This document shows, one piece after another, positions 1 to 30,305 of a DNA stretch of 64,000 nt (the first letter of the stretch is position 1; every line of letters starts with the position of its first letter). The translations under genes and the position numbers were made by a program. Source of the DNA: Escherichia phage Gostya9; sequence record NC_047979.1. One strand, 5' to 3'. Below the pieces are notes generated by a model. It was given only the letters and a program-made list of their open reading frames with translations, did not search any database and was not told the DNA's origin.

Positions 1-408
1 AATACAGTAACGTCTATTATTTTCCAGTTTAAGTCAAGGTGACTTAGTGGTTATGCCCTGCGGTATACTGGGGACTCGGTTAGGTTAGGGTCATGACTTC
101 CTACCTTTTTGCTGCTACTCAACAGGAGTTATCGCGAATTACCTGTGCTATTGTGCACCATTAGTGGCATCTCTCATGCCAGCATTTCCCACTTTGTGGA
201 TAGTTTGAAAAACTACTCCGATATGGAGGGAGAACTTCACTATCCTAGAATACCTTCTAAAGTTCTTCTTTAGCCTGGACATAGTTAAATCGTAATAAAA
301 CTATTCAGCAGACTGGTTGGTTAGCCTGGAACCAACTACCGCGTGGTTTAGGCAGTGCGCAACTAACCTCGGAAGCTTTTACGTTAAAAGCACCAGTTAT
401 CCAGTTCT

Positions 409-480
409 TACCGATCGTAGGATTCGAACCTACATCTTCCACCAGTTACGGCTTGATAATACCGTTTATACTAGATCGGC
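409..480 (-). tRNA. tRNA-like element (possibly degenerate tRNA or pseudo-tRNA); anticodon not assignable
   Basis: Minus-strand sequence GCCGATC...GTAGG-TTCGAAT-CCTAC-GATCGGT-A gives a canonical T-arm (5-bp stem, TTCGAAT loop) and a 7-bp acceptor stem with G1-U71 and discriminator A. The 40 nt between them do not fold into standard D and anticodon arms by hand (only an ACGG/CCGT 4-bp stem with a 10-nt loop). It lies directly downstream of an early-type promoter at 557-585. Confidence 0.4.
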
Positions 481-556
481 AGTGTTACTACATAAGTGAT
501 TTCCACACCCCACTATTTATAACTTAGAGAAGAATTACTCTCTAATTTATGAATAT

Positions 557-16311: not shown

Positions 16312-17139
16312 GTGCGTAGATTAATTATTATTAGCGGTGCAGGTTTGAGTGTTGAAAGTGGTGTACGAGCCTTCCGTACTGATACTGCTAGTGGTAAAGC
16401 ATTGTGGGATGATTATGATCTAGAAGAAGTATGTAATATTCATGCCTTTCGTGGTAATTTTTATCATAAAACTCATATGTTTTACAACAAGCGTCGTGAA
16501 GAGTTAGAAACTGTTGAACCCAATCTTGCACACTTGCGTATTGGTGAATGGCATAAGAAATACCAGGGTCAAGTAGTAAACTTGACTACCAACGTTGATG
16601 ACCTTATTGAGCGTGCTGGCGTTCCACATAGTGACATTCTGCACATTCATGGGTATTTAAAAGAGGTTGTTGTAGCTGATAGCTACAATAGTAGCAATAA
16701 ACGAGTTATTGATGTTGGGTATAGCTCTATTGACCCAGAGGATTATAAATGGGTTAAACCTAATGTAGTCTTCTTTGGTGAGCATGCTCCAGCGTACGCA
16801 GAAATGTACAATATTTTTGATGGTATTACCAGTCAAGATATGATTATTGTGGTTGGTTGCTCTAACCAAGTAATTAACTTCTACTGGGAATTATTCCCTG
16901 TTCTTAACCGTACTGCTGCGAAACTTATGGTGGTTAACTACTACGATATTACCCTCGCGGCAGAACCAGGCTATCAAGGTATGACTCGTAGTGAGATGTA
17001 CCAACTGGAAGAACGGGGTATTCCTTACTGGGGTAAAGGTGCGGTAGATGCTTTCAGTGACCCTGATTTTATTGCTCGTGTGGAAGCCCATTTAGAGGGT
17101 AGACCTTATATGCCGGGGAACAAATATGTCCATAGTTAA
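16312..17139 (+). CDS. Sir2-family (sirtuin-like) NAD+-binding protein lacking the zinc-ribbon module; probable GTG start
   Basis: Sirtuin motifs in order: GAGLSVESGVRAFR (GAGxS..SG..FR), TTNVDDL (TQNxD-like), HIHGY (catalytic His), PNVVFFGE, VVGCSNQV. No CxxC...CxxC Zn-binding insert. GTG at 16312 with AGAGAGGG upstream; no in-frame ATG before the GAG motif. Confidence 0.7.
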   Translation: MRRLIIISGAGLSVESGVRAFRTDTASGKALWDDYDLEEVCNIHAFRGNFYHKTHMFYNKRREELETVEPNLAHLRIGEWHKKYQGQVVNLTTNVDDLIERAGVPHSDILHIHGYLKEVVVADSYNSSNKRVIDVGYSSIDPEDYKWVKPNVVFFGEHAPAYAEMYNIFDGITSQDMIIVVGCSNQVINFYWELFPVLNRTAAKLMVVNYYDITLAAEPGYQGMTRSEMYQLEERGIPYWGKGAVDAFSDPDFIARVEAHLEGRPYMPGNKYVHS

Positions 17140-17783: not shown

Positions 17784-18212
17784 ATGTTCAATAATGTATT
17801 CTCTAAAGAAGCTAACCCAATATTGGTTAATTTTTGGCGTACTCTTCCAGCCAACCTGTACAATGAGGCTATTAATGCTCTGAAAATATGGTGTGAGAAT
17901 AATGAAATCTCCTTTGCTTTTAAGGATGAGATTGAAGAAGCTCCCTGTATTGGTTTAATTGTGCAGGTAGAGGATGGCTTTGAAGAGATTGTCGGCTGGA
18001 AAGAGTTGGATGAAATGGGATTGGTTTTTGCATTAAACTATAAGCTGTTTATGCCTAATAAACACCGTATTGTTGTTAATTATAAAACCAGTGAATCTCC
18101 TGGTTTTCAAGTTAATGAACATTACGGTTGGTCTTACTCACCGGAAGAAGTAAATGATGGTATCCAAAGACTTCGTCGTTTTGGTTATCAAATTCCGGGT
18201 TTAACTGCCTAA
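17784..18212 (+). CDS. hypothetical protein, paralog A of a tandem pair
   Basis: 142 aa; shares conserved blocks with the next gene (SFAFKDEIEEAPCIGL / KELDEMGLVFALNYKLFMP / FGYQIPGL). Confidence 0.6.
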   Translation: MFNNVFSKEANPILVNFWRTLPANLYNEAINALKIWCENNEISFAFKDEIEEAPCIGLIVQVEDGFEEIVGWKELDEMGLVFALNYKLFMPNKHRIVVNYKTSESPGFQVNEHYGWSYSPEEVNDGIQRLRRFGYQIPGLTA

Positions 18213-18221
18213 GGGGGCACA

Positions 18222-18614
18222 ATGGAACAAGTATATTGGCGTCAGATTGATCCTAGTTTGGTGAAGAGTGCGGAGAAGCTGCTACAACGTTGGTTGGGGG
18301 TAAGACAAGCCTCCTTCACTTTTCCGGAGCAGCAAATAGACGATCCCTGTGTTGGTGTTTTCCTATCAGGCTACGCTAGGGAAGTGGAATTGGATTGGAA
18401 TGAATTGTCTGCTATGGGTTTAATTGTTGCACTAGATTTCTCTTTGTTCCATCCAAGTGGTTTGGCAATATGTCGTGTGCCTGATGACGGTTGTTCGCCC
18501 CATCTTTTACAGGTGGAAGATAATATTTGGGAGTACCCTCCAGATATTCTCAAAGAAGCTAAAGAACAATTAAATCGTGTTGGGATTTATGTTCCAGGCC
18601 TGAATGATGAATGA
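18222..18614 (+). CDS. hypothetical protein, paralog B of a tandem pair
   Basis: 130 aa; aligned blocks SFTFPEQQIDDPCVGV / NELSAMGLIVALDFSLFHP / VGIYVPGL mirror the upstream gene. Confidence 0.6.
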   Translation: MEQVYWRQIDPSLVKSAEKLLQRWLGVRQASFTFPEQQIDDPCVGVFLSGYAREVELDWNELSAMGLIVALDFSLFHPSGLAICRVPDDGCSPHLLQVEDNIWEYPPDILKEAKEQLNRVGIYVPGLNDE

Positions 18615-18638
18615 TTTTTATTAGCTGAACTCTGATTA

Positions 18639-18664
18639 CCGAGTCATTTTGGCTCGGTTTTCTC
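18639..18664 (+). terminator. rho-independent terminator
   Basis: Hairpin ACCGAG-TCATTTTGG-CTCGGT followed by TTTTCTC. Confidence 0.5.
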
Positions 18665-18705
18665 TATGCTCAAAGACACTGGTAGCAGCATCCGGAAAAT
18701 TTTAC

Positions 18706-18734
18706 TTGCATGATGCCCAAAATCTTGATATAAT
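18706..18734 (+). promoter_or_regulatory. sigma70-type early promoter (TTGCAT-N17-TATAAT)
   Basis: TTGCAT, 17-bp spacer, TATAAT; followed by about 600 nt with no ORF of 60 aa or more before the next gene. Confidence 0.5.
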
Positions 18735-19331
18735 ATTTATATTGAATTGAGAGACATTAGTAAAAATTGATTTTGCTAATTTTTCTTAGTGAAGCTGACA
18801 AGGGATTTACGGCGAGAGGAATCGATGACCCGTAAATAGCTGCATAAGGTACGTTGCTAGAGCTTTACGAAAAAGTTTTTTCTTGTTTACAATCCGCGAT
18901 ACGGAACAGTTAGGCTGCCCCATTAAGGGTTGTTTTAACTGTTACGTGTTAGTTTTTAAACAACTAATTAATAGAATACTTAGCGATCTGCGTCCCATAG
19001 GAACCCTGGTAAGGCCTCGAAGCAACCTAGTATGAGGTGGTTGTGAAGTGAGATGGGAGGAGTGAAAAACTACCGAGACGTGATTCTGTAAGTTATATTG
19101 CATCTAGTATGAGCTAGTATATGAAGCATTAGGTGAGCAAATCTGGCTTAGCGGCCATCCTCAAGGATTTGTGCGGTATAATGAGGCAGCAGCGCAGCGT
19201 GAAAGTGGAAGTTGCCACCCCACTTCAGTATTTGCAATTAATTTGTTGAGAAATTGACAGTAACAGTTGTTCTATTCTTTCTGAATAGTCCTAAAGAAAA
19301 CTTATTTCATTTCCAACACAGGAGTATTGTT

Positions 19332-22121
19332 GTGTTTTCAATCCTACAAGGTCATGCAGGATTTCATCGCGATTTAGCCACGGGCAATTGGCGAGAAGTT
19401 AAAGCAGAAGATTATCTTTTTGCTAAAAGATTTTCCTCAAAGCATCCTGAAGGTAAACCAGCTTCAATGCCCTTCAAGTTTGATGTAATTGACGAAGTTG
19501 ATCCTCAAACCCTAGTAGAAATGCTCCCTCTTATGAGACGTTTAACGTCTGACCCTCATATCGTTGCGGTACGAGGTCGATGTCTTGCACCTAAAAATAA
19601 TGTGCGGCGTAAGAAGGGCAACTTTAATGTATCTAATCCTAGTAATATTATTGCTATGGACGTGGATGGTATTGTAGATACAGGTGGTTGTAACAAGTTT
19701 GATCTTGTTGGCATGGCTCGACATATTATTAGGATGTTAAATAGTATTAGTGAGGATATGTTTCCTCTTGATGCAGGGTTTATTGCTCATGCATCGTCTT
19801 CGGCTGGGCTAAAACCAGGTATCCGAATGCACTTAATACTAGAATCTAATGTTAAAGTAACTCAGGGTCAAATCAAGTTCTTATTTACATCTATCAACGA
19901 AAGTAGTAGACAAAAGTATGGCTTTGATATTGCCGACTTAGCTTATTACTCTTCCGTACAGCTCCATTATTTTGCAGATCCTCTATTTATTGATGGTATA
20001 GTTGATCCGTTTAAAGCGGAGGGTGCTTCACGTCTGGTATTTGTTAAGGGTTCTAAAGTAAATTTACCTAATAATCTAGTTGACTATGAAACAACTAGAG
20101 GAGAGTTTAAAGAGGAATTCTACTCTTTACTCGATCAAATTAAAGGTAAAAAAGCTGCCTCTGATAAAGTAGAGGAAACTATCAGTGAGCTAGAAGAGGC
20201 TGATGATGGGGTATACTTACGTATTATTCCAAAGCTATATCACCGAGCGTTAGAGGATGGGGTAGATTTTGGTTGGCTAGAAAAAGAAATCCGCCCAGCT
20301 TTATCAGAATATATTGCAACTAAAGATAATAGCCGTAATATTCAAGACTACTTTAACAACGGTCGAAAACAGGCTCTGAAAGCATTTGTTAATAATTCTA
20401 AACGTGATATACCCGATGTTTTAAAAGGTATTCCGCTTAAAAAGCTAGAAACTAATTCACTAGAGACCGACAACTTCTTGAAATTAAATACTGTACCACC
20501 AGAAGGCTATATGACTTTTGTAAAAGCAAGTCTAGGTACAGGTAAAACCACGGCGGTTGTGCGTTGGCTGGATTCAGGAGTTATTAAAGGTAATTTCTTA
20601 GCAGTTACCAACACTAGAGCACTGGTATCTTCAAATGCTAAGAAATTTAGTGCAGGACAATACGATAAGTCTGTAGATATGCTTAATTTTAAGCGTGGTG
20701 CTATTGACCGTATGTCCACAACCATTCACTCTTTGCATAAGTTTAAGAGTTTTATTGGTCAAATTGATGCAATCTTTATAGATGAATGTGATGCAGTAAT
20801 GAATGACCTATTATTCGCCCCGGTTGTTAAGCAACGTCGTGAGTGTATTCAGGTTCTTCGTGATATTCTTGCAACTGCAAAAATCATTATACTATCCGAT
20901 GGTGATATTAGTGCCGAGACGATTGAAGCATATGGTTCTTTGATTGAGTTCGATAAACCAGTTGCATTCTATAATCATCACCGTAAGATGCTGTCAAAAG
21001 CTCATGCTTATGAGTTCCCTGATGAGTCCAGTATTTGGGTTGCACTTCAGACTTCTCTAGAGATGGGTGAGAAATCTATTCTAGTATCTGATTGTGGCCC
21101 TGATGAGCTGAATGAGAAGGGTATGGCACTACGTCGTAATACTGGTGCATTAGTTAAAGAAATCCATTCAAACTCCACTTCAGATGTGGATATTCGACGT
21201 ATTCTGGATTATACAACTAATGAGCTAATTGATCAACAAATTGATTGCTTATTATGTAGTCCATCCGTAACGAGTGGTGTTGACTTTAACTATTTCGATA
21301 ATGTATTTGTTATTACTAGAACCAGTAATCAGGCGCCAAACATGCGTTTTCAAGCAATCAGGCGCGACCGTGGTGCTCAGAATATCTATTATTTTATTGA
21401 TAAATCCACTAGTGGATTCTCTGCGGGTTCTGAACAATATAATATCGATGAAGGTTGGCTGGAGTTAGCACAGCAATTATATGCACGTCGCAGGGAGCTG
21501 GAGTCTAGGAACTATACTAGTACTTTACGTTATTACTTGCTTGATCAGGGTGCAACTATTGATATTTTCAGTGAAAGCTGGGGAACTATTGAAGGTGCTG
21601 GTAAAGAATACACAGAAGAGCGAATCAAAGCTATTCTACATTCAACTCCTGATTATTGTGCTCCACGTCATGCGGATGCGTATGAGGCTAAACTACTTAT
21701 TGTTCGCTATTATCATCTTGAGTCTATTAAAGATGTAACAGTTGAGCATGTTGAACAATATATCAAAGATAAGCCGAATGATCGAGCTGCATTCTTCCAT
21801 AAGATGCACGAGATGTTCTGGGAAGATATTAAGAAGTGTTCAAATGTGACCATTAAACCATTCATAGAAGCTCTGAAAGGTAAGAAGAAAGATTTCTTCC
21901 TTAAAACAGGTCAGAGTGCTAACCCAAAATATGCTAGAATGTATCTTGGTATGATGGGTATTGGTAAAGATATGAACACGGAGAATATCGTAGACTGGTA
22001 TAGAACCTACTGCAAAATCGAATGTATGCCAATTCCTTTCAAATTCATGACAGAAGAAGAGAAAGCTATGGCAGAAGAAGCAATGTCAGAGCTAGGTGCT
22101 AGAAATGACAGTGAAGAATAA
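19332..22121 (+). CDS. putative replication initiation protein: N-terminal AEP-like primase domain fused to a P-loop helicase/ATPase
   Basis: About 929 aa. N-terminal IIAMDVDG (AEP motif-I-like hhhDhD) and a His-containing segment (FIAHASSSAGLKPGIRMHLIL); central Walker A SLGTGKTT and Walker B IFIDECD. Start placed at GTG 19332 with AGGAG RBS; the track ORF begins upstream at a TTG. Confidence 0.55.
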   Translation: MFSILQGHAGFHRDLATGNWREVKAEDYLFAKRFSSKHPEGKPASMPFKFDVIDEVDPQTLVEMLPLMRRLTSDPHIVAVRGRCLAPKNNVRRKKGNFNVSNPSNIIAMDVDGIVDTGGCNKFDLVGMARHIIRMLNSISEDMFPLDAGFIAHASSSAGLKPGIRMHLILESNVKVTQGQIKFLFTSINESSRQKYGFDIADLAYYSSVQLHYFADPLFIDGIVDPFKAEGASRLVFVKGSKVNLPNNLVDYETTRGEFKEEFYSLLDQIKGKKAASDKVEETISELEEADDGVYLRIIPKLYHRALEDGVDFGWLEKEIRPALSEYIATKDNSRNIQDYFNNGRKQALKAFVNNSKRDIPDVLKGIPLKKLETNSLETDNFLKLNTVPPEGYMTFVKASLGTGKTTAVVRWLDSGVIKGNFLAVTNTRALVSSNAKKFSAGQYDKSVDMLNFKRGAIDRMSTTIHSLHKFKSFIGQIDAIFIDECDAVMNDLLFAPVVKQRRECIQVLRDILATAKIIILSDGDISAETIEAYGSLIEFDKPVAFYNHHRKMLSKAHAYEFPDESSIWVALQTSLEMGEKSILVSDCGPDELNEKGMALRRNTGALVKEIHSNSTSDVDIRRILDYTTNELIDQQIDCLLCSPSVTSGVDFNYFDNVFVITRTSNQAPNMRFQAIRRDRGAQNIYYFIDKSTSGFSAGSEQYNIDEGWLELAQQLYARRRELESRNYTSTLRYYLLDQGATIDIFSESWGTIEGAGKEYTEERIKAILHSTPDYCAPRHADAYEAKLLIVRYYHLESIKDVTVEHVEQYIKDKPNDRAAFFHKMHEMFWEDIKKCSNVTIKPFIEALKGKKKDFFLKTGQSANPKYARMYLGMMGIGKDMNTENIVDWYRTYCKIECMPIPFKFMTEEEKAMAEEAMSELGARNDSEE

Positions 22122-22338: not shown

Positions 22339-22347
22339 AAAATTTAT

Positions 22348-22376
22348 TTGCATAGTTCAAAAAATTTCTGTATAAT
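22348..22376 (+). promoter_or_regulatory. sigma70-type early promoter (TTGCAT-N17-TATAAT)
   Basis: TTGCAT, 17-bp spacer, TATAAT, then CATAAATTTGAGAGAGGAG box/RBS. Confidence 0.55.
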
Positions 22377-22407: not shown

Positions 22408-23112
22408 ATGGCTGGTTCTCGCAGAAAGAAACATATCCATGAAATCCCGGATGAAGTCTTTAAAAAGGTTATAGAGCATCTGGAGAACGGCGGTACTAAG
22501 AAAGCAGCATGTGAAATGCTCGGCGTATCATCCAACCCAACTATGGAAAGGATGATAGAAGAGTGGCAAGATCGCCAAATTCAAGTTGCCGAGATGAAGA
22601 AAAAGAAACGTGGTACACTCATTGAAGGCATCGAGTTAGCTAACGTTATTGAACAGTATTTATCTGGTGATTCTTTTGAAGAGATTGCCGATCGTAATTA
22701 CCGCTCTGTAGCAATGGTTAAATCTGTTCTGGAACGATATGGTGCTCTACTTCGTTTGAACGATATTGTAGATCCATTGAATCCACCAATTATTCCTGAC
22801 GATGCTGTAGCAGAAGAATTTGAGGTAGGTGAGCTTGTTTGGGTTCCTGGATACCAGTGTATCGGTGAAATCAAAAAAGCAATGGATAATCCTGTTGGTT
22901 GTTACCGTGTATGGCTTCTATCAGAAGGCAAACAACAGAACGTTCATTATATGAATTACGAGCTGGCTTCTGTTAAACATCTGGAAAAGCTAGGGGTTGA
23001 CGTAAAATCTCTGGGGTATAAATGGTCTCGGGAAGAAGTTATCACACTGATTAACGAAGCTGTTAAGGCCGCCCTGAAACTTGATAAAGAAAAAGGAAAA
23101 CGCCGTGAGTAA
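22408..23112 (+). CDS. putative HTH DNA-binding protein (234 aa)
   Basis: N-terminal helix-turn-helix-like segment (GGTKKAACEMLGVSSNPTMERM); strong RBS. Confidence 0.5.
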   Translation: MAGSRRKKHIHEIPDEVFKKVIEHLENGGTKKAACEMLGVSSNPTMERMIEEWQDRQIQVAEMKKKKRGTLIEGIELANVIEQYLSGDSFEEIADRNYRSVAMVKSVLERYGALLRLNDIVDPLNPPIIPDDAVAEEFEVGELVWVPGYQCIGEIKKAMDNPVGCYRVWLLSEGKQQNVHYMNYELASVKHLEKLGVDVKSLGYKWSREEVITLINEAVKAALKLDKEKGKRRE

Positions 23113-27352: not shown

Positions 27353-27382
27353 GGGGTGGGGGCTATGCCTCTACCCCTTTTT
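27353..27382 (+). terminator. rho-independent terminator
   Basis: GC-rich hairpin GGGGTGGGGGC / GCCTCTACCCC (with G-U pairs) followed by TTTTT. Confidence 0.55.
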
Positions 27383-27415
27383 GCATTTAGAAGGCACGAA
27401 AGCGTGCAAAGGAGA

Positions 27416-28888
27416 ATGACCTTGTTTAACGTGCAAGCTGTAGTGTTGAAGATGCTTCTAGCTTCCGAACAGAAGCAAATAGCATTGGAAACATTCTCAA
27501 AACTGCATAAAGATCATTTTAATGACGCTTTCTCCTCAATTTACCAAGCCGTCCAGAATTATTATAAAAAATATAACACAATGCCGTCCATTGACGCACT
27601 GATGCTTGAGGCTAATAGGAACGCCCGCCTTTCTCAAGCTCTAGTCGTTTTAGCTAACACTCAAATTCCAGAAGTTAGCATGGAACAGGCACTTGAAGTC
27701 CTAGAGGCCGAGTATACACAGGATTTATTCCTGAAGCTTCTAGAAACAGACGTGCTTCAAGATTTAACAATGCTGGATCAGGGAGAAATTCTTAACCGAG
27801 TTGCCTCCCTTCACTTAAAATTAGAAGAGAAAGTAACGAATACTGGAAAAGTATTCAACGCAGATAACATGCGTATTTTCCAGAGAGAAGAAGATACCAA
27901 ACTGAACTTAATCGCTCTTGGTATTTGTAATGAGTTCGACGCTCAAATTGGTTTAGCTCGCACAGAAACGTTACTGCTTGGTGGTTGGCGTGGTACTGGT
28001 AAATCCATTATCTGTTCAAACATACAGGTTCAGCAATATTTGAATGGAGATATTGCTCCATACTTCTCAATTGAGATGAAAGAACATGAAGTATTTAGAC
28101 GTAATCTAGCTATGTTAGCTGGTGTATCAGCACTAGCAATGCGTAATAATACTCTAGAAGGTGCAGCTCTGTTGAGATTAGCCAGAACTAGAGCTAGGAT
28201 GTTTAACGGTGGTGAAGAGCTTTTCGATAACTTCGTTAAACAGTACACAATGGCTAAGATGAGTGATTTCTACGATATGGAAAGTAAGCTAATAGAAGGA
28301 TATGAGCTACATACTCCTATGATTATTGTTTATGATCCTGAGCTGTCTATTACAACAGTTGACGTAGAATTAAATAAATTAGTTGCTAGATATGGGGATA
28401 AAGTTACAGTAGCTTTACTAGACTATATTAACCAAACCCGACTTCCAGACTCTAAAACCATTGATATGTATGACTGGAAAGAACAGATGGTTGTTAGCTC
28501 GTCTTTCAAATCTATCTGCCAGAAACATAACGTGGCTGGTGTAGCTCCTTACCAGATCGATCAAGATGGTAGAACACGTATGTCGAAGGGGATTCTTGAT
28601 TCCGCAGACATGGCTGCTAATCTTAATGCTGCAAAAGCTGATAATGGTCAAGGTGCTATTATGTTTGACTTCGTTAAGACTCGGTCTTCTGATAGCGTGA
28701 AGTTTATGCCTAAAATGAACTGGGAAACCCTGCGGATGGATAACACTACCAACCTAGCAATGGAAGATATATCTCAAATGGAAGCTGAGTTCGTTATCCC
28801 TATTGAGAAGGATAAGCCGACTCAATCTAAACGTGCTAAGAAAGACAAAGCTGAAAATTCAACAGGTGAACAGGCCAGCGATATATGA
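27416..28888 (+). CDS. DnaB-like replicative DNA helicase
   Basis: About 490 aa with RecA-like P-loop (LLGGWRGTGKSIIC). ATG at 27416 with AAAGGAGA RBS, downstream of the terminator; the track ORF begins upstream inside the hairpin. Confidence 0.6.
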   Translation: MTLFNVQAVVLKMLLASEQKQIALETFSKLHKDHFNDAFSSIYQAVQNYYKKYNTMPSIDALMLEANRNARLSQALVVLANTQIPEVSMEQALEVLEAEYTQDLFLKLLETDVLQDLTMLDQGEILNRVASLHLKLEEKVTNTGKVFNADNMRIFQREEDTKLNLIALGICNEFDAQIGLARTETLLLGGWRGTGKSIICSNIQVQQYLNGDIAPYFSIEMKEHEVFRRNLAMLAGVSALAMRNNTLEGAALLRLARTRARMFNGGEELFDNFVKQYTMAKMSDFYDMESKLIEGYELHTPMIIVYDPELSITTVDVELNKLVARYGDKVTVALLDYINQTRLPDSKTIDMYDWKEQMVVSSSFKSICQKHNVAGVAPYQIDQDGRTRMSKGILDSADMAANLNAAKADNGQGAIMFDFVKTRSSDSVKFMPKMNWETLRMDNTTNLAMEDISQMEAEFVIPIEKDKPTQSKRAKKDKAENSTGEQASDI

Positions 28889-29418
28889 TAACACAGGAAA
28901 GGCTAAAAGAGTTATTTGATTACTCCCCAGTTTCTGGGGAGTTTACTAGAAAAGTATCTAGAGGTAATCAGAAAGCTGGTAGTATAATAACCAGAAAAGA
29001 CTCTAACGGTTATATAATTATTGGTATAGATGGCAAGGATTACAAAGCCCATCGGATGGCTTTTCTATTTATGGAAAATACATTGCCGGAAAAAGTAGAC
29101 CATGTAAACAGAATACCTTTTGATAATAGGTGGTGTAATCTAAGAGACGCCACAGCTCAGGAAAATAGTAGAAATAAAACCGCATGTAGTAAGTCTGGAT
29201 ATTTGGGAGTTGCTTGGGATATCGAAAAACAAAGATGGAGAGTTCAAGTAAGAGACTCTAATAGCACTCTTAAAAATGGTGGCAGATTTAAGTATGAAGA
29301 GCTAGAGCTAGCTGTAAATTCAGCAAATATATTAAGGACTAAGTTACATGGAGAACGTGCTGTTATAGAAATTTTTGATACATCTAATTATCCTTCACTG
29401 GAGGAGTTAAATTCATGA
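28885..29418 (+). CDS. HNH homing endonuclease
   Basis: HVNRIPFDNRWCNLRDATAQENSRN matches the HNH catalytic motif (H...N...N). 177 aa, inserted between helicase and primase with overlapping start/stop codons. Confidence 0.7.
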   Translation: MITQERLKELFDYSPVSGEFTRKVSRGNQKAGSIITRKDSNGYIIIGIDGKDYKAHRMAFLFMENTLPEKVDHVNRIPFDNRWCNLRDATAQENSRNKTACSKSGYLGVAWDIEKQRWRVQVRDSNSTLKNGGRFKYEELELAVNSANILRTKLHGERAVIEIFDTSNYPSLEELNS

Positions 29419-30305
29419 GTCGAATAACAGAATTACTTGATCTTAAGGGAATTGAGTATAAAGATACTGGTGGAGATATTTTAATCTGTTGTCTAAATCC
29501 AGATCATGATGATAAACACCCAAGTTTGCGTATTGACCCTGAAACAGGTATTATGCACTGCTTGAGTTGTGGCTTCGGTAAAGGTATACCGAGCATTTAC
29601 CATTATTTTAATGAGACTCAGTACCGACAGTCCCCAAGACTATCCCAAGTACGTAAAAAGATTTCAGAGATTAGAAATGGATCTACAAATCTTGCAATCC
29701 CAGAATCTGCTTTTCTTTTTGAAGGTGATTTCCGAGGTATCAGTTCTAAGACCTTAAAGAAATATTTTGCTTTCCAACACCAAGAGGACTGGGAGGGCAG
29801 AATTGTATTCCCAATCACAGATGCTGTTGGACGCAATATCCTATTTTTGGGTCGTTCTATAAACAGTTCTGCCCCTCCTAAATACTTAGTAAAACCAAAA
29901 CAAGTTTCACCACCAATTTTCCCTGTACGATATAATACTCCAGTTCTTATTCTAGTTGAAGGCATCTTTGATATGCTGAAGCTAGAGGATAATGGTATAG
30001 ACTATGCTTCCTGCTGTTTTGGTACACATCAGTTTACTTCCGATAACATTGCAGATAAGTTCAGTCCTTATATTATTGCCGGTGTAAAAGTTGTTGTTAT
30101 CTTACTAGATAATGATGCTTCTGGTAATAAAGCTGCCCAGTCTCTAGCGAAGTTAATTCGTACAAAAACGCGTTTAACACCTGTAGTTGCTAACTTTCTT
30201 CTGCCTGAAGGTAAAGACCCTGGTGACTTAAATAAAGAAGAAGTCGATACGTTAGCAAAACGTATTGAAATTTTAGTTGCTGAATCGCTTAAAGATTTGG
30301 TATAA
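29415..30305 (+). CDS. DNA primase (DnaG-type: CHC2 zinc finger + TOPRIM)
   Basis: CLNPDHDDKHPSLRIDPETGIMHCLSCGFGKG (CHC2 Zn-binding) and VLILVEGIFDMLKLEDNG (TOPRIM acidic motif); GGAGG RBS. Confidence 0.75.
   Translation: MSRITELLDLKGIEYKDTGGDILICCLNPDHDDKHPSLRIDPETGIMHCLSCGFGKGIPSIYHYFNETQYRQSPRLSQVRKKISEIRNGSTNLAIPESAFLFEGDFRGISSKTLKKYFAFQHQEDWEGRIVFPITDAVGRNILFLGRSINSSAPPKYLVKPKQVSPPIFPVRYNTPVLILVEGIFDMLKLEDNGIDYASCCFGTHQFTSDNIADKFSPYIIAGVKVVVILLDNDASGNKAAQSLAKLIRTKTRLTPVVANFLLPEGKDPGDLNKEEVDTLAKRIEILVAESLKDLV

What the first reader, a model, noticed from the sequence alone, without database searches (positions are those of the whole stretch)
18640..22121. AEP-primase-like/helicase fusion preceded by a 600-nt ORF-free, promoter-driven leader
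The 929-aa protein combines an N-terminal archaeo-eukaryotic-primase-like motif (IIAMDVDG) with a Walker A/B ATPase (GTGKTT, IFIDECD), the architecture of primase-helicase replication initiators, while a separate DnaG-type primase is also encoded at 29415-30305. Between the promoter at 18706 and the GTG start lie about 600 nt with no ORF of 60 aa or more and several inverted repeats; this could be a structured leader, an sRNA or an origin-associated region.
Basis: partly seen in the sequence, partly recalled or inferred. Interest (0 to 1): 0.5.

Follow-up and report, generated by a model that had tools for sequence, protein, structure and literature searches.

The report
Structured leader RNA before T5 primase-helicase
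In this T5-like phage, the gene for a replication protein that joins a primase-like domain to a helicase is preceded by a transcribed, non-coding stretch of about 590 bases that folds into a conserved RNA structure matching no described RNA family; its function is unknown.

Summary
The window is a T5-like phage, 97.6% identical to DT57C. ORF 19332-22121 encodes the 929-aa T5 "D2" helicase. It follows a terminator (18638-18658), a strong extended -10 promoter (18706-18734) and about 590 nt with no conserved ORF.

The protein reading is supported. The N-terminus models with high confidence as an archaeo-eukaryotic primase (AEP) fold with near-invariant DxD, S..H and D motifs. It is fused to a UL9-like SF2 helicase. 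A separate DnaG-type primase and a DnaB-like helicase are also encoded.

The new result is the leader. Across 36 distinct T5-like sequences it keeps invariant islands at fixed spacing. The helices between them covary: 94.7% of cells pair, against 35-48% in slid controls, and 37 of 75 pairs change on both sides. A long-range rod of about 45 bp encloses a multi-helix domain. G-U pairs mark the + strand as the folded one. Rfam 15 has no match, and the T5 records I examined annotate only the flanking promoter and terminator.

Function is inferred. Most likely the leader controls D2 expression in cis. It could instead be a processed stand-alone RNA, or less likely an origin transcript.

The parts
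18638..18665 (+). Intrinsic terminator-like hairpin with T tract that ends the upstream DUF7415 gene pair
   Evidence: Annotated as a putative rho-independent terminator at the same place in T5 NC_005859.
18706..18734 (+). Sigma-70 early promoter: -35 TTGCAT, 17-nt spacer, extended -10 TGaTATAAT, A/T-rich upstream
   Evidence: Sequence. Invariant TATAAT and TTGC across T5-like phages. Annotated as a promoter in T5 records.
18741..19331 (+). Transcribed non-coding leader RNA. About 590 nt here, and about 490 nt in phages that lack the insert.
   Evidence: No conserved ORF. Islands at fixed spacing. Covariation. No Rfam match. The start at about 18741 is inferred from the promoter position, not measured.
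18746..18790 (+). P1 hairpin: UUGAGAGA, an inner stem-loop, then UUUUUCUU
   Evidence: The inner stem differs compensatorily in the Klebsiella-type and L026 leaders.
18782..18876 (+). Lineage-variable 95-nt insert that forms its own hairpin, bounded by TTTTTCTT direct repeats
   Evidence: Absent from T5 and most relatives. Present in 9 of 36 sequences across different central-domain types. Fold. No other copy in the window.
18889..18933 (+). P2 hairpin carrying invariant island C (ACGGAACAGUUAGGCUGCCCCAU)
   Evidence: Helix 2: 16 pairs, 98.4% paired, 3 pairs with two-sided change. Coordinates.
18936..18993 (+). 5' strand of the long-range rod (helix 3, its extension, and helix 4)
   Evidence: Helices 3 and 4, including a G-C to G-U to A-U series. 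The extension is complementary within each sequence type but not between types.
19137..19172 (+). Island E hairpin: invariant GGCUUAGCGGCC closed by a fully covarying helix
   Evidence: Helix 7: 8 of 8 pairs with two-sided changes, 99.3% paired. Helix 8 also.
19192..19269 (+). 3' strand of the rod (19192-19200 and 19227-19269), with hairpin P9 (19208-19226) branching off
19269..19299 (+). Island F with hairpin P10 (CUAUUC/GAAUAG, 19272-19288)
   Evidence: Helix 10. Compensated in the Klebsiella-type (CUAUC/GAUAG) and L026 (CUUUCC/GGAAAG) leaders.
19314..19334 (+). Ribosome-binding region: AGGAG sits in the loop of a small hairpin whose 3' arm reaches the GTG start. A possible partner of the CU-rich tract at 18880-18886.
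   Evidence: Helix 1 is 99.2% paired but has only one covarying pair, so this is tentative.
19332..22121 (+). D2 gene, 929 aa. AEP-like primase domain at aa ~1-250, helical domain to aa ~390, UL9-like SF2 helicase at aa ~390-710, and a C-terminal region with no family match.
   Evidence: PMC3632103.
19647..19937 (+). AEP catalytic motifs: DVD (D110, D112), SSSAG..H (S155-H167) and D202
   Evidence: Invariant in 10 Demerecviridae. Invariant (D202) or near-invariant in 68 homologues. Positions.
20535..20792 (+). Helicase Walker A (GTGKTT, 20535-20552) and Walker B (IFIDECD, 20772-20792)
   Evidence: PF02399 match over aa 394-533.

Best explanation
**What is shown.** The locus is one early transcription unit of a T5-like phage. 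The sequence fits host sigma-70 RNA polymerase starting at about 18741, just after the promoter at 18706-18734. It would then transcribe about 590 nt of non-coding RNA that runs, without a terminator or second promoter, into the D2 gene.

D2 is a replication protein. Its N-terminus has an AEP primase fold and its centre is a UL9-like SF2 helicase.

The leader is a conserved, elaborately folded RNA:
- two 5' hairpins, P1 and P2, the second carrying invariant island C;
- a long-range rod of about 45 bp that encloses a multi-helix domain presenting the invariant loop GGCUUAGCGGCC;
- a 3' hairpin, followed by the ribosome-binding site.

**What is inferred.** I think the leader most likely acts in cis to set the amount or timing of D2 synthesis. 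One possible route is that the CU-rich 3' strand of P1 pairs either with GAGAGA in P1 or with the SD sequence. The balance could be shifted by a bound factor, possibly D2 itself, or by RNase III cutting the rod, as in the lambda N leader.

I put the existence of the structured RNA at about 0.9 and the cis-regulatory role at about 0.4-0.5.
For: **Identity of the phage and gene.**

**Promoter, terminator and absence of conserved ORFs.**

**Conservation.** The gap recurs in about 530 phage records. The spacing between islands is constant at 57, 240-244, 124-125 and 63 nt, although the central sequence is only 43-70% identical between types.

**Covariation.**
- 94.7% of cells pair, against 35-48% when partners are slid.
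- 37 of 75 pairs change on both sides, against 7-16 when slid.
- The covariation score is 0.302, against 0.05-0.09 when slid.
- 0 of 500 shuffles reach the observed values.

**Rod extension.** The two rod segments are complementary within each of 8 representatives (z -2.6 to -5.6). Combinations across types give background energies.

**Strand.** 17% of paired cells are G-U. The opposite strand would pair in only 78% of cells.

**Contiguity.** In the 36 distinct T5-like leaders I aligned, the large insertions lie upstream of the promoter. None splits promoter, RNA and D2.

**No internal signals.** No terminator-like site or strong promoter lies between the leader and D2 in the window.

**Anti-SD pairing.** Helix 1 is 99.2% paired.

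**Protein.**. Biochemistry of D2 in PMC3632103.
Against: **No experimental data.** Nothing here shows the transcript, its ends or any regulatory effect.

**Size.** About 490 nt is several times larger than typical cis-regulatory RNAs.

**Thermodynamics.** Folding energy alone is unremarkable (z -1.76).

**Anti-SD helix.** It is almost invariant, with one covarying pair. CU/AG complementarity is also easy to obtain by chance.

**Distant relatives.** In other Demerecviridae the equivalent long non-coding region looks like a separate unit:
- Proteus phage RP7 has a second perfect promoter 37 nt before the D2 start.
- Vibrio phage D233 has two terminator-like hairpins about 85-130 nt before it.

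**Homology of those regions is unproven.** The covariance model and nhmmer found nothing significant.
Confidence: 0.5

Rival explanations
1. The structured RNA is a stand-alone non-coding RNA gene. Its product is released from the transcript, for example by RNase III cutting at the rod, and acts in trans on a host or phage target. Its position upstream of D2 would then be synteny rather than regulation.
For: - Its size, multi-domain architecture and invariant loop sequences resemble large stand-alone bacterial and phage RNAs more than typical leaders. That comparison rests on my own knowledge of OLE, ROOL and GOLLD.
- A rod of about 45 bp enclosing a folded domain is the geometry by which RNase III excises pre-rRNAs. 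This is established knowledge, not tested here.
- In distant Demerecviridae the long non-coding region is separated from D2 by terminator-like hairpins or by a second perfect promoter.
Against: - In the T5-like phages examined, no terminator or promoter separates the RNA from D2.
- The spacing from island F to the start codon is fixed at 63 nt.
- The best-conserved parts are the two ends, next to the promoter and the ribosome-binding site.
- No target or partner is known.
- Homology with the Vibrio, Aeromonas and Proteus regions is not established.
Confidence: 0.3
2. The region belongs to a replication origin. The strong promoter would make a structured primer or R-loop-forming transcript, in the manner of ColE1 RNA II or the T7 and T4 origin promoters. 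Alternatively the unwound strand would fold into a primase recognition structure like the RSF1010 ssi sites. D2, encoded next door, would act on it.
For: - It lies directly beside the gene for a UL9-like, AEP-primase-containing protein proposed to be a replication initiator (PMC3632103).
- RepB', which recognises structured ssi DNA, is among the fold matches.
- The locus sits at about 48.5-48.9% of the 121,750-bp T5 genome.
- Electron microscopy reported internal bidirectional origins in T5 (Bourguignon 1976, as cited). I could not read that paper.
Against: - Selection acts on RNA-type pairing, with 17% G-U pairs specific to the transcribed strand and helices spanning up to 330 nt. An R-loop primer needs less than this.
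- No iterons or marked repeats are present.
- No antisense promoter lies inside the leader.
- Recombitron editing showed a strand bias in T5 that the authors read as dominant unidirectional replication from one genome end (PMC10055335).
- GC skew follows the direction of transcription and shows no inflection here.
Confidence: 0.12
3. The gap holds short protein-coding genes that annotation has missed. PHANOTATE called ORFs of 33 and 50 aa here in phage Tennessee.
For: Small ORFs of 20-60 aa exist on both strands.
Against: - No ORF is kept in position, length or sequence across the five central-domain types. The 50-aa ORF of the window is 60 aa in L007 and 21 aa in T5.
- The substitution pattern preserves base pairs, not codons.
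- Six-frame proteomics of phiR2-01 added only two genes, g18.1 and g54.1, whose names place them elsewhere in the genome (PMC8624392).
Confidence: 0.02
4. The conservation reflects DNA-level signals only, or recent recombination, and there is no functional RNA fold.
For: - The 5' 110 nt and the 3' 70 nt are almost identical among Tequintavirus and Epseptimavirus phages, so they say little about pairing.
- The related sequences share ancestry, which inflates the shuffle controls (caveat stated in the output).
Against: - The slid-partner control keeps relatedness and still gives 35-48% pairing against 94.7%.
- Five or more unrelated-looking central sequences each keep the same helices.
Confidence: 0.03

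Closest known systems
Bacteriophage T5 D2 helicase (T5.108 / T5p106, 'replication origin binding protein')
   Same: - It is the ortholog: 93% amino-acid identity to T5 and 99.5% to DT57C repA.
- The motif positions are the same: Walker A at aa 399-406 and PF02399 at aa 392-532.
   Different: Nothing essential differs. The 2013 paper, in the passages I read, predicted an HTH motif and coiled coils. It did not describe the N-terminal AEP-like fold shown here. Some GenBank records do already call the protein 'DNA primase'.
AEP primase-helicase fusions of phages, plasmids and large DNA viruses (poxvirus D5/E5, ASFV PrimPol, NrS-1, and PriCT-2/D5_N/VapE proteins)
   Same: - An N-terminal AEP fold with DxD, SxH and D motifs is followed by a helical domain and an NTPase helicase.
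   Different: - The helicase is a UL9-like SF2 enzyme, not an SF3 enzyme.
- No Prim-Pol, PriCT or D5_N HMM matches D2 itself.
Herpesvirus UL9 origin-binding protein
   Same: The SF2 helicase core matches, with PF02399 above its gathering score and PDB hits 9hgj and 9hgi.
   Different: - Only about 140 residues align.
- UL9, to my knowledge, has no AEP domain.
- The C-terminal origin-binding domain of UL9 was not matched.
Long structured mRNA leaders processed or regulated at the RNA level (the lambda N leader with its RNase III site, the E. coli rpoS 5' UTR)
   Same: - A promoter-proximal, non-coding, folded 5' region is continuous with the regulated gene.
- There is a long duplex that could be an RNase III substrate.
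- An SD-proximal pairing is possible.
   Different: - There is no sequence or Rfam relationship.
- The leader is larger and carries invariant loop motifs.
- Regulation and processing are not demonstrated.
- The comparison rests on my own knowledge of those systems.
Large phage-associated structured RNAs (ROOL, GOLLD)
   Same: They are phage-borne, roughly 500-800 nt, have many helices and are of unknown function.
   Different: - No covariance-model match even at E up to 10.
- This RNA sits in a 5' UTR position next to a replication gene.
- Exact-pattern scans found it only in T5-like phages.
ColE1 RNA II and the T7 and T4 origin transcripts
   Same: A strong promoter drives a non-coding transcript of about 0.5 kb in a replication-gene neighbourhood.
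   Different: - No antisense partner promoter was found.
- No origin has been mapped here.
- The recombitron data point elsewhere.

Membership tests
Archaeo-eukaryotic primase (AEP) superfamily | Motif I: acidic DxD/DxE at the end of a beta-strand | tested here: met
   D110 and D112 (IIAMDVDG) lie on strand E104-114 of the model. They are invariant in 10 Demerecviridae and near-invariant in 68 homologues.
Archaeo-eukaryotic primase (AEP) superfamily | Motif II (S/G...H) and motif III (Asp) | tested here: met
   S155, G159 and H167 are near-invariant and D202 is invariant.
Archaeo-eukaryotic primase (AEP) superfamily | AEP alpha/beta catalytic fold | tested here: met
   - AlphaFold2 pLDDT 93.8.
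- All top Foldseek PDB hits are AEPs, though the E-values are weak at 2e-3 to 0.1.
- BFVD phage primases at E 1e-9 to 1e-4.
Archaeo-eukaryotic primase (AEP) superfamily | Match to a curated AEP sequence family (Prim-Pol, PriCT, D5_N and others) | tested here: not met
   - No Pfam, NCBIfam or PDB-sequence hit for aa 1-390.
- The only link is indirect: remote homologues of aa ~40-250 carry PriCT_2, D5_N, Pox_D5 or VapE domains.
Archaeo-eukaryotic primase (AEP) superfamily | Primer synthesis activity | not testable with these tools
   The passages of the D2 paper that I read report helicase activities only.
UL9-like SF2 helicases (Pfam PF02399 Herpes_ori_bp; NCBIfam CyRepA1) | Walker A, DExx Walker B and a family HMM match | tested here: met
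   - PF02399 scores 29.7 bits against a cut-off of 20.
- UL9 structures match at E 1e-5.
- Motifs located.
- CyRepA1 scores 120 bits, below its equivalog cut-off of 200, so D2 is related but not a member.
SF3 primase-helicases (D5/P4-alpha type) | SF3 helicase domain (D5_N/DUF5906/Pox_D5 or VapE) after the primase | tested here: not met
   D2 matches none of these families. Its helicase is SF2.
Any Rfam 15 RNA family (riboswitches, group I/II introns, RNase P, tmRNA, 6S, ROOL, GOLLD, ribozymes) | Covariance-model match | tested here: not met
   - At gathering thresholds the only hit in the window is a tRNA at 409-480.
- At E up to 10 on 18500-19450, only four chance-level hits at E of 8 or more.
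- ARAGORN finds no tRNA or tmRNA in the region.
Conserved structured RNA (generic criterion) | Compensatory base changes that maintain helices, specific to one strand | tested here: met
Cis-regulatory 5' leader | Lies between the promoter and the regulated start codon, with no intervening terminator or promoter | tested here: met
   True in the window and in the aligned T5-like phages. Not true in Proteus RP7 or Vibrio D233.
Cis-regulatory 5' leader | An expression platform: alternative pairing that hides the SD or start codon, or forms a terminator | tested here: inconclusive
   The CU tract at 18880-18886 can pair with ACAGGAG at 19318-19324. The helix is 99.2% paired but has only one covarying pair. 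The register of the SD hairpin differs between lineages.
Origin-associated primer transcript (ColE1 RNA II type) | A mapped initiation site with RNase H processing, and an antisense regulator | not testable with these tools
   Only indirect points are available: no antisense promoter inside the leader, and recombitron strand bias argues for initiation near a genome end.

The most novel reading that the evidence does not exclude
The leader would be the founding member of a new class of large (about 0.5 kb) ornate RNAs present throughout the T5 family (Demerecviridae). It would work together with the AEP-primase/SF2-helicase D2 in starting phage DNA replication. For example, it could be a structured primer or a loading platform recognised through its invariant UUAG-type loops. 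Alternatively it could be excised by RNase III and act in trans on the host.
Probability: 0.2. Interest if true: 0.85.

Novelty: new variant of a known kind. Interest (0 to 1): 0.62.

Why it matters
T5 is a classical model phage, and its relatives are widely isolated for biocontrol and therapy. How T5 replication starts is still unsettled.

The protein half of the finding is largely known. The helicase was characterised in 2013, and some records already call the protein a primase. The structural evidence here shows that one polypeptide combines an AEP fold, with its catalytic motifs intact, and a UL9-like helicase. It sits beside a separate DnaB/DnaG pair, which fits a dedicated initiator.

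The leader is the new part. It is an RNA of about 490 nt with strong covariation and invariant loops, and it has no Rfam family. It lies in one of the most conserved non-coding stretches of these genomes and is left blank in the records I examined.

If it controls D2, it would be an unusually large regulatory RNA for a replication gene. If it is excised or used at an origin, it would add a new large functional RNA to phage biology. All three readings can be tested directly in E. coli infected with T5.

Tried and rejected
**Dead ends and failed attempts**
- **Wrong frame.** My first Pfam and PHROG calls used 19333 and failed. The correct start is 19332.
- **Single-sequence AlphaFold2.** The N-terminus gave pLDDT 34 and was unusable. 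The run succeeded only with a 68-sequence alignment.
- **The search for homologous proteins.** It returned only two fragments, with both a single query and a profile. The family seems absent from that index.
- **Profile searches of the N-terminus.** Searches against PDB sequences and Pfam found nothing relevant.
- **Extending the RNA to distant relatives.** Covariance model R1, built on the island E domain, found nothing in the Proteus, Providencia, Vibrio or Aeromonas loci. nhmmer with the whole-leader profile also gave no significant hit. Only eye-level resemblances remain:
  - GCUUAGCGG inside hairpins at L029:2215, L037:2090 and L041:1197;
  - an island-C-like stretch at L041:1433-1478.
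- **Metagenome scan.** The 15-base island C pattern returned at least 120 hits. All but one T5-like contig (L144) lack the other islands.
- **Genome scan.** The single hit, L196 in a Saccharibacteria MAG, has no similarity to the window. About two chance matches are expected by my estimate.
- **Bourguignon 1976.** The paper could not be read.
- **Literature.** Six searches found no description of this RNA.

**Readings considered and rejected**
- Group I intron, RNase P-like RNA, tmRNA and 6S RNA: no Rfam or ARAGORN support.
- Conserved small ORFs.
- Iteron-type origin repeats.
- A processive-antitermination leader for a very long operon: the unit appears to end at terminators at about 24.2-24.5 kb, and further promoters follow.

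Full report
**Origin of the window.** The 3.8-kb region around the finding is 97.6% identical to Escherichia phage DT57C. It matches about 530 T5-like phage records. Gene order is that of the T5 early region:
- nrdD and a Sir2-like gene;
- two DUF7415 paralogues;
- a long gap;
- a gene annotated variously as 'repA/D1', 'D2' or 'replication origin binding protein';
- then ligase, a DnaB-like helicase, a DnaG-like primase and the polymerase.

**Check of the observation.** The ORF is 19332-22121, with a GTG start 7 nt after AGGAG, and encodes 929 aa.
- The quoted motifs are at aa 106-113 (IIAMDVDG), 402-407 (GTGKTT) and 481-487 (IFIDECD).
- Upstream lie a terminator-like hairpin at 18638-18658 and a promoter: TTGCAT, 17 nt, TGaTATAAT, at 18706-18734.
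- Both are annotated at the equivalent positions in T5 NC_005859. AY692264 annotates a putative promoter there. Neither record annotates anything in the roughly 470 nt before the gene.
- No ORF in 18615-19331 exceeds 53 aa.
- The second primase at 29415-30305 is a genuine DnaG type. A DnaB-like helicase lies at 27356-28888.

**The protein.**
- *Helicase half.* Residues 390-710 form an SF2 helicase related to herpesvirus UL9. PF02399 scores 29.7 bits against a cut-off of 20, and UL9 structures match at E 1e-5. The cyanobacterial plasmid protein CyRepA1 matches below its cut-off. This is the enzyme characterised as the bipolar helicase D2 of T5, with the same motif positions (PMC3632103).
- *N-terminus at sequence level.* Residues 1-390 match no Pfam, NCBIfam or PDB sequence profile.
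- *Conserved residues.* An alignment of ten Demerecviridae orthologues down to 25% identity shows invariant D110, D112, S155, S157, G159, R165, H167 and D202.
- *Remote homologues.* An exhaustive HMMER search found 72 homologues. The remote ones align to residues ~40-250 and carry PriCT_2, D5_N, DUF5906, Pox_D5 or VapE domains. That is the architecture of phage and plasmid primase-helicases.
- *Structure.* With a 68-sequence alignment, AlphaFold2 gave pLDDT 93.8. A single-sequence run had failed.
  - Foldseek against the PDB returned only AEP enzymes at the top: ASFV PrimPol, LigD polymerase domain, S-2L PrimPol, RepB', Prim-PolC and HSV UL52. Their E-values are weak, 2e-3 to 0.1.
  - BFVD gave phage 'primase', 'PriCT-2', 'RepB' and 'NrS-1-like' proteins at E 1e-9 to 1e-4.
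- *Conclusion.* D2 has an AEP fold with an intact catalytic-type motif set, fused to an SF2 helicase rather than an SF3 helicase. Primase activity itself is untested.

**The leader is conserved as an RNA structure.**
- *Length.* The gap between the upstream gene and D2 is 600-620 nt in most of the relatives I measured. That includes Klebsiella-type phages whose D2 is only 74-78% identical.
- *Insertions.* Longer versions carry insertions of about 170 or 510 nt upstream of the promoter. Apart from one hairpin insert of about 97 nt just after P1, which the window has at 18782-18876, none lies inside the transcribed part.
- *Islands.* Invariant islands occur at fixed spacing of 57, 240-244, 124-125 and 63 nt: UUGAGAGA, ACGGAACAGUUAGGCUGCCCCAU, GGCUUAGCGGCC and GUUCUAUUCUU.
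- *Sequence types.* The sequence between the islands falls into at least five types that are 43-70% identical to the window.
- *Covariation.* An RNAalifold structure derived from eight representatives was scored on 36 distinct sequences.
  - 94.7% of cells pair, against 35-48% when partners are slid by 1-3 columns.
  - 37 of 75 pairs change on both sides, against 7-16 when slid.
  - The covariation score is 0.302, against 0.05-0.09 when slid. No shuffle of 500 reaches the observed values.
  - The helix that closes the GGCUUAGCGGCC loop covaries at all 8 pairs.
  - The helix at 18983-18993 with 19192-19200 covaries at 6 of 9 pairs.
  - The long-range helix at 18936-18946 with 19259-19269 shows G-C, G-U (T5 itself) and A-U at one position.
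- *The rod.* The 36-nt and 32-nt segments that continue this helix are complementary within each of eight representatives. Their duplex energies are -13 to -23 kcal/mol, against -6 to -8.5 for shuffles. Across types the energies fall to background. The result is a rod of about 45 bp enclosing a branched domain of roughly 200 nt.
- *Strand.* G-U pairs make up 17% of paired cells. The complementary strand would pair in only 78% of cells. The folded strand is therefore the one the promoter transcribes.
- *Alternatives excluded.*
  - No small ORF is conserved.
  - Rfam 15 has no match at gathering thresholds, or at E up to 10.
  - No tRNA or tmRNA is present in the region.
  - There are no iteron-like repeats.
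  - Folding energy alone is unremarkable at z -1.76, so the case rests on covariation.

**Distribution.**
- An exact two-island pattern recovers only the roughly 30 T5-like contigs of IMG/VR.
- It recovers one T5-like contig among the metagenome hits I inspected.
- It recovers one match in bacterial genomes that shows no similarity to the window and is consistent with chance.
- Every Demerecviridae genome examined has a stretch of 700-1600 nt without credible genes before the D2 orthologue. These are Proteus RP7, three Vibrio phages and Aeromonas TS3.
- Neither the covariance model of the island E domain nor nhmmer links those stretches significantly to the T5 leader. Only short resemblances are visible.
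- In RP7 a second perfect promoter lies 37 nt before D2.
- In Vibrio D233 the true start is 135 nt upstream of the annotated one. Two terminator-like hairpins lie about 85-130 nt before it.

**How it most likely works.**
- *Shown.*
  - A consensus-quality promoter is present.
  - The leader is non-coding and structurally constrained on the sense strand.
  - It is continuous with D2, with no detected terminator or strong promoter in between.
  - The unit ends at terminators near 24.2-24.5 kb. A homologue of the classical P-N25 promoter lies at 22347-22376.
- *Inferred.* The leader sets D2 translation or mRNA fate. The CU-rich 3' strand of P1 (18880-18886 in the window) can pair with GAGAGA or with ACAGGAG at the SD. 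That helix is 99.2% paired but nearly invariant, so it is weakly supported. The rod is a plausible RNase III substrate by analogy with the lambda N leader and pre-rRNA stems, which I recall from my own knowledge.
- *Probabilities.* Cis control about 0.4-0.5; an excised or independent trans-acting RNA about 0.3; an origin-associated transcript or structure about 0.12.
- *The origin idea.* It is attractive because of the neighbouring initiator-like protein and the mid-genome position, 48.5-48.9% of T5. But recombitron editing showed a strand bias in T5 that the authors interpret as replication mainly from one end (PMC10055335). The classical EM paper could not be consulted.

**Novelty.**
- The protein is known, and its primase-like nature is already hinted at in some annotations.
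- The leader RNA is unannotated in the T5, DT57C and BASEL-collection records I looked at. One PHANOTATE-based record calls short ORFs in it.
- It is absent from Rfam 15, and six literature searches did not find it.
- It is best described as a new structured-RNA family of unusual size in a leader position.

Noticed in passing
window 18782-18876: A 95-nt hairpin-forming insert bounded by TTTTTCTT direct repeats sits between P1 and P2 of the leader. It occurs in 9 of 36 leaders, spread over different central-domain types (DT57C, HildyBeyeler, bastian, phiR2-01 and others), and is absent from T5. That suggests either a small mobile or recombining module or repeated loss. No second copy exists in the window.
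   Followed up: partly
L004/L010/L023 (about 170 nt extra), L006/L013/L032 (about 510 nt extra), L030 (about 630 nt extra), all upstream of the promoter: The larger length variants of the intergenic region come from insertions between the upstream gene and the promoter, not within the RNA. GenBank records with similar lengths annotate HNH homing endonucleases here (S132, IrisVonRoten).
   Followed up: partly
window 28885-29418: An HNH endonuclease ORF (PF13392) lies between the DnaB-like helicase gene (27356-28888) and the DnaG-like primase gene (29415-30305). Its ends overlap both. It looks like a free-standing homing endonuclease inside the replication module.
   Followed up: no
window 17784-18212 and 18222-18614: Two tandem paralogous genes, about 30% identical to each other, each with a DUF7415 domain, sit immediately upstream of the leader. 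They are conserved down to the Klebsiella T5-like phages at about 36% identity.
   Followed up: no
window 22347-22376: A promoter-like site (TTTGCA, 18 nt, TATAAT) lies in front of the 234-aa HTH protein gene (22408-23112). It corresponds to the site annotated as the classical strong T5 promoter P-N25 in AY692264.
   Followed up: partly
L039 (Vibrio phage D233) 2501-2636; L003 (phage Tennessee); L044 (KKP_3831): Start codons of the D2 orthologue are annotated inconsistently. D233 is annotated 135 nt too short: the conserved MF.IL N-terminus begins at 2501. Tennessee and KKP_3831 are extended upstream into the leader.
   Followed up: partly
L040 (Vibrio phage vB_ValS_X1) about 1850-2110: The non-coding region before the D2 orthologue contains a tandem duplication of a module of about 190 nt. 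The module is rich in short G+C stems with UUCG- or CUCG-type loops, which suggests a different, or highly diverged, structured RNA in the same position.
   Followed up: no
window 16312-17139: The Sir2-like ORF is full length here at 275 aa. DT57C annotates only a 273-nt 'defective' Sir2 fragment at the corresponding place.
   Followed up: no
window 408-481 (- strand): The only tRNA in the window is a tRNA-Ser with anticodon ACU, according to ARAGORN. Rfam scores it at 39 bits.
   Followed up: no
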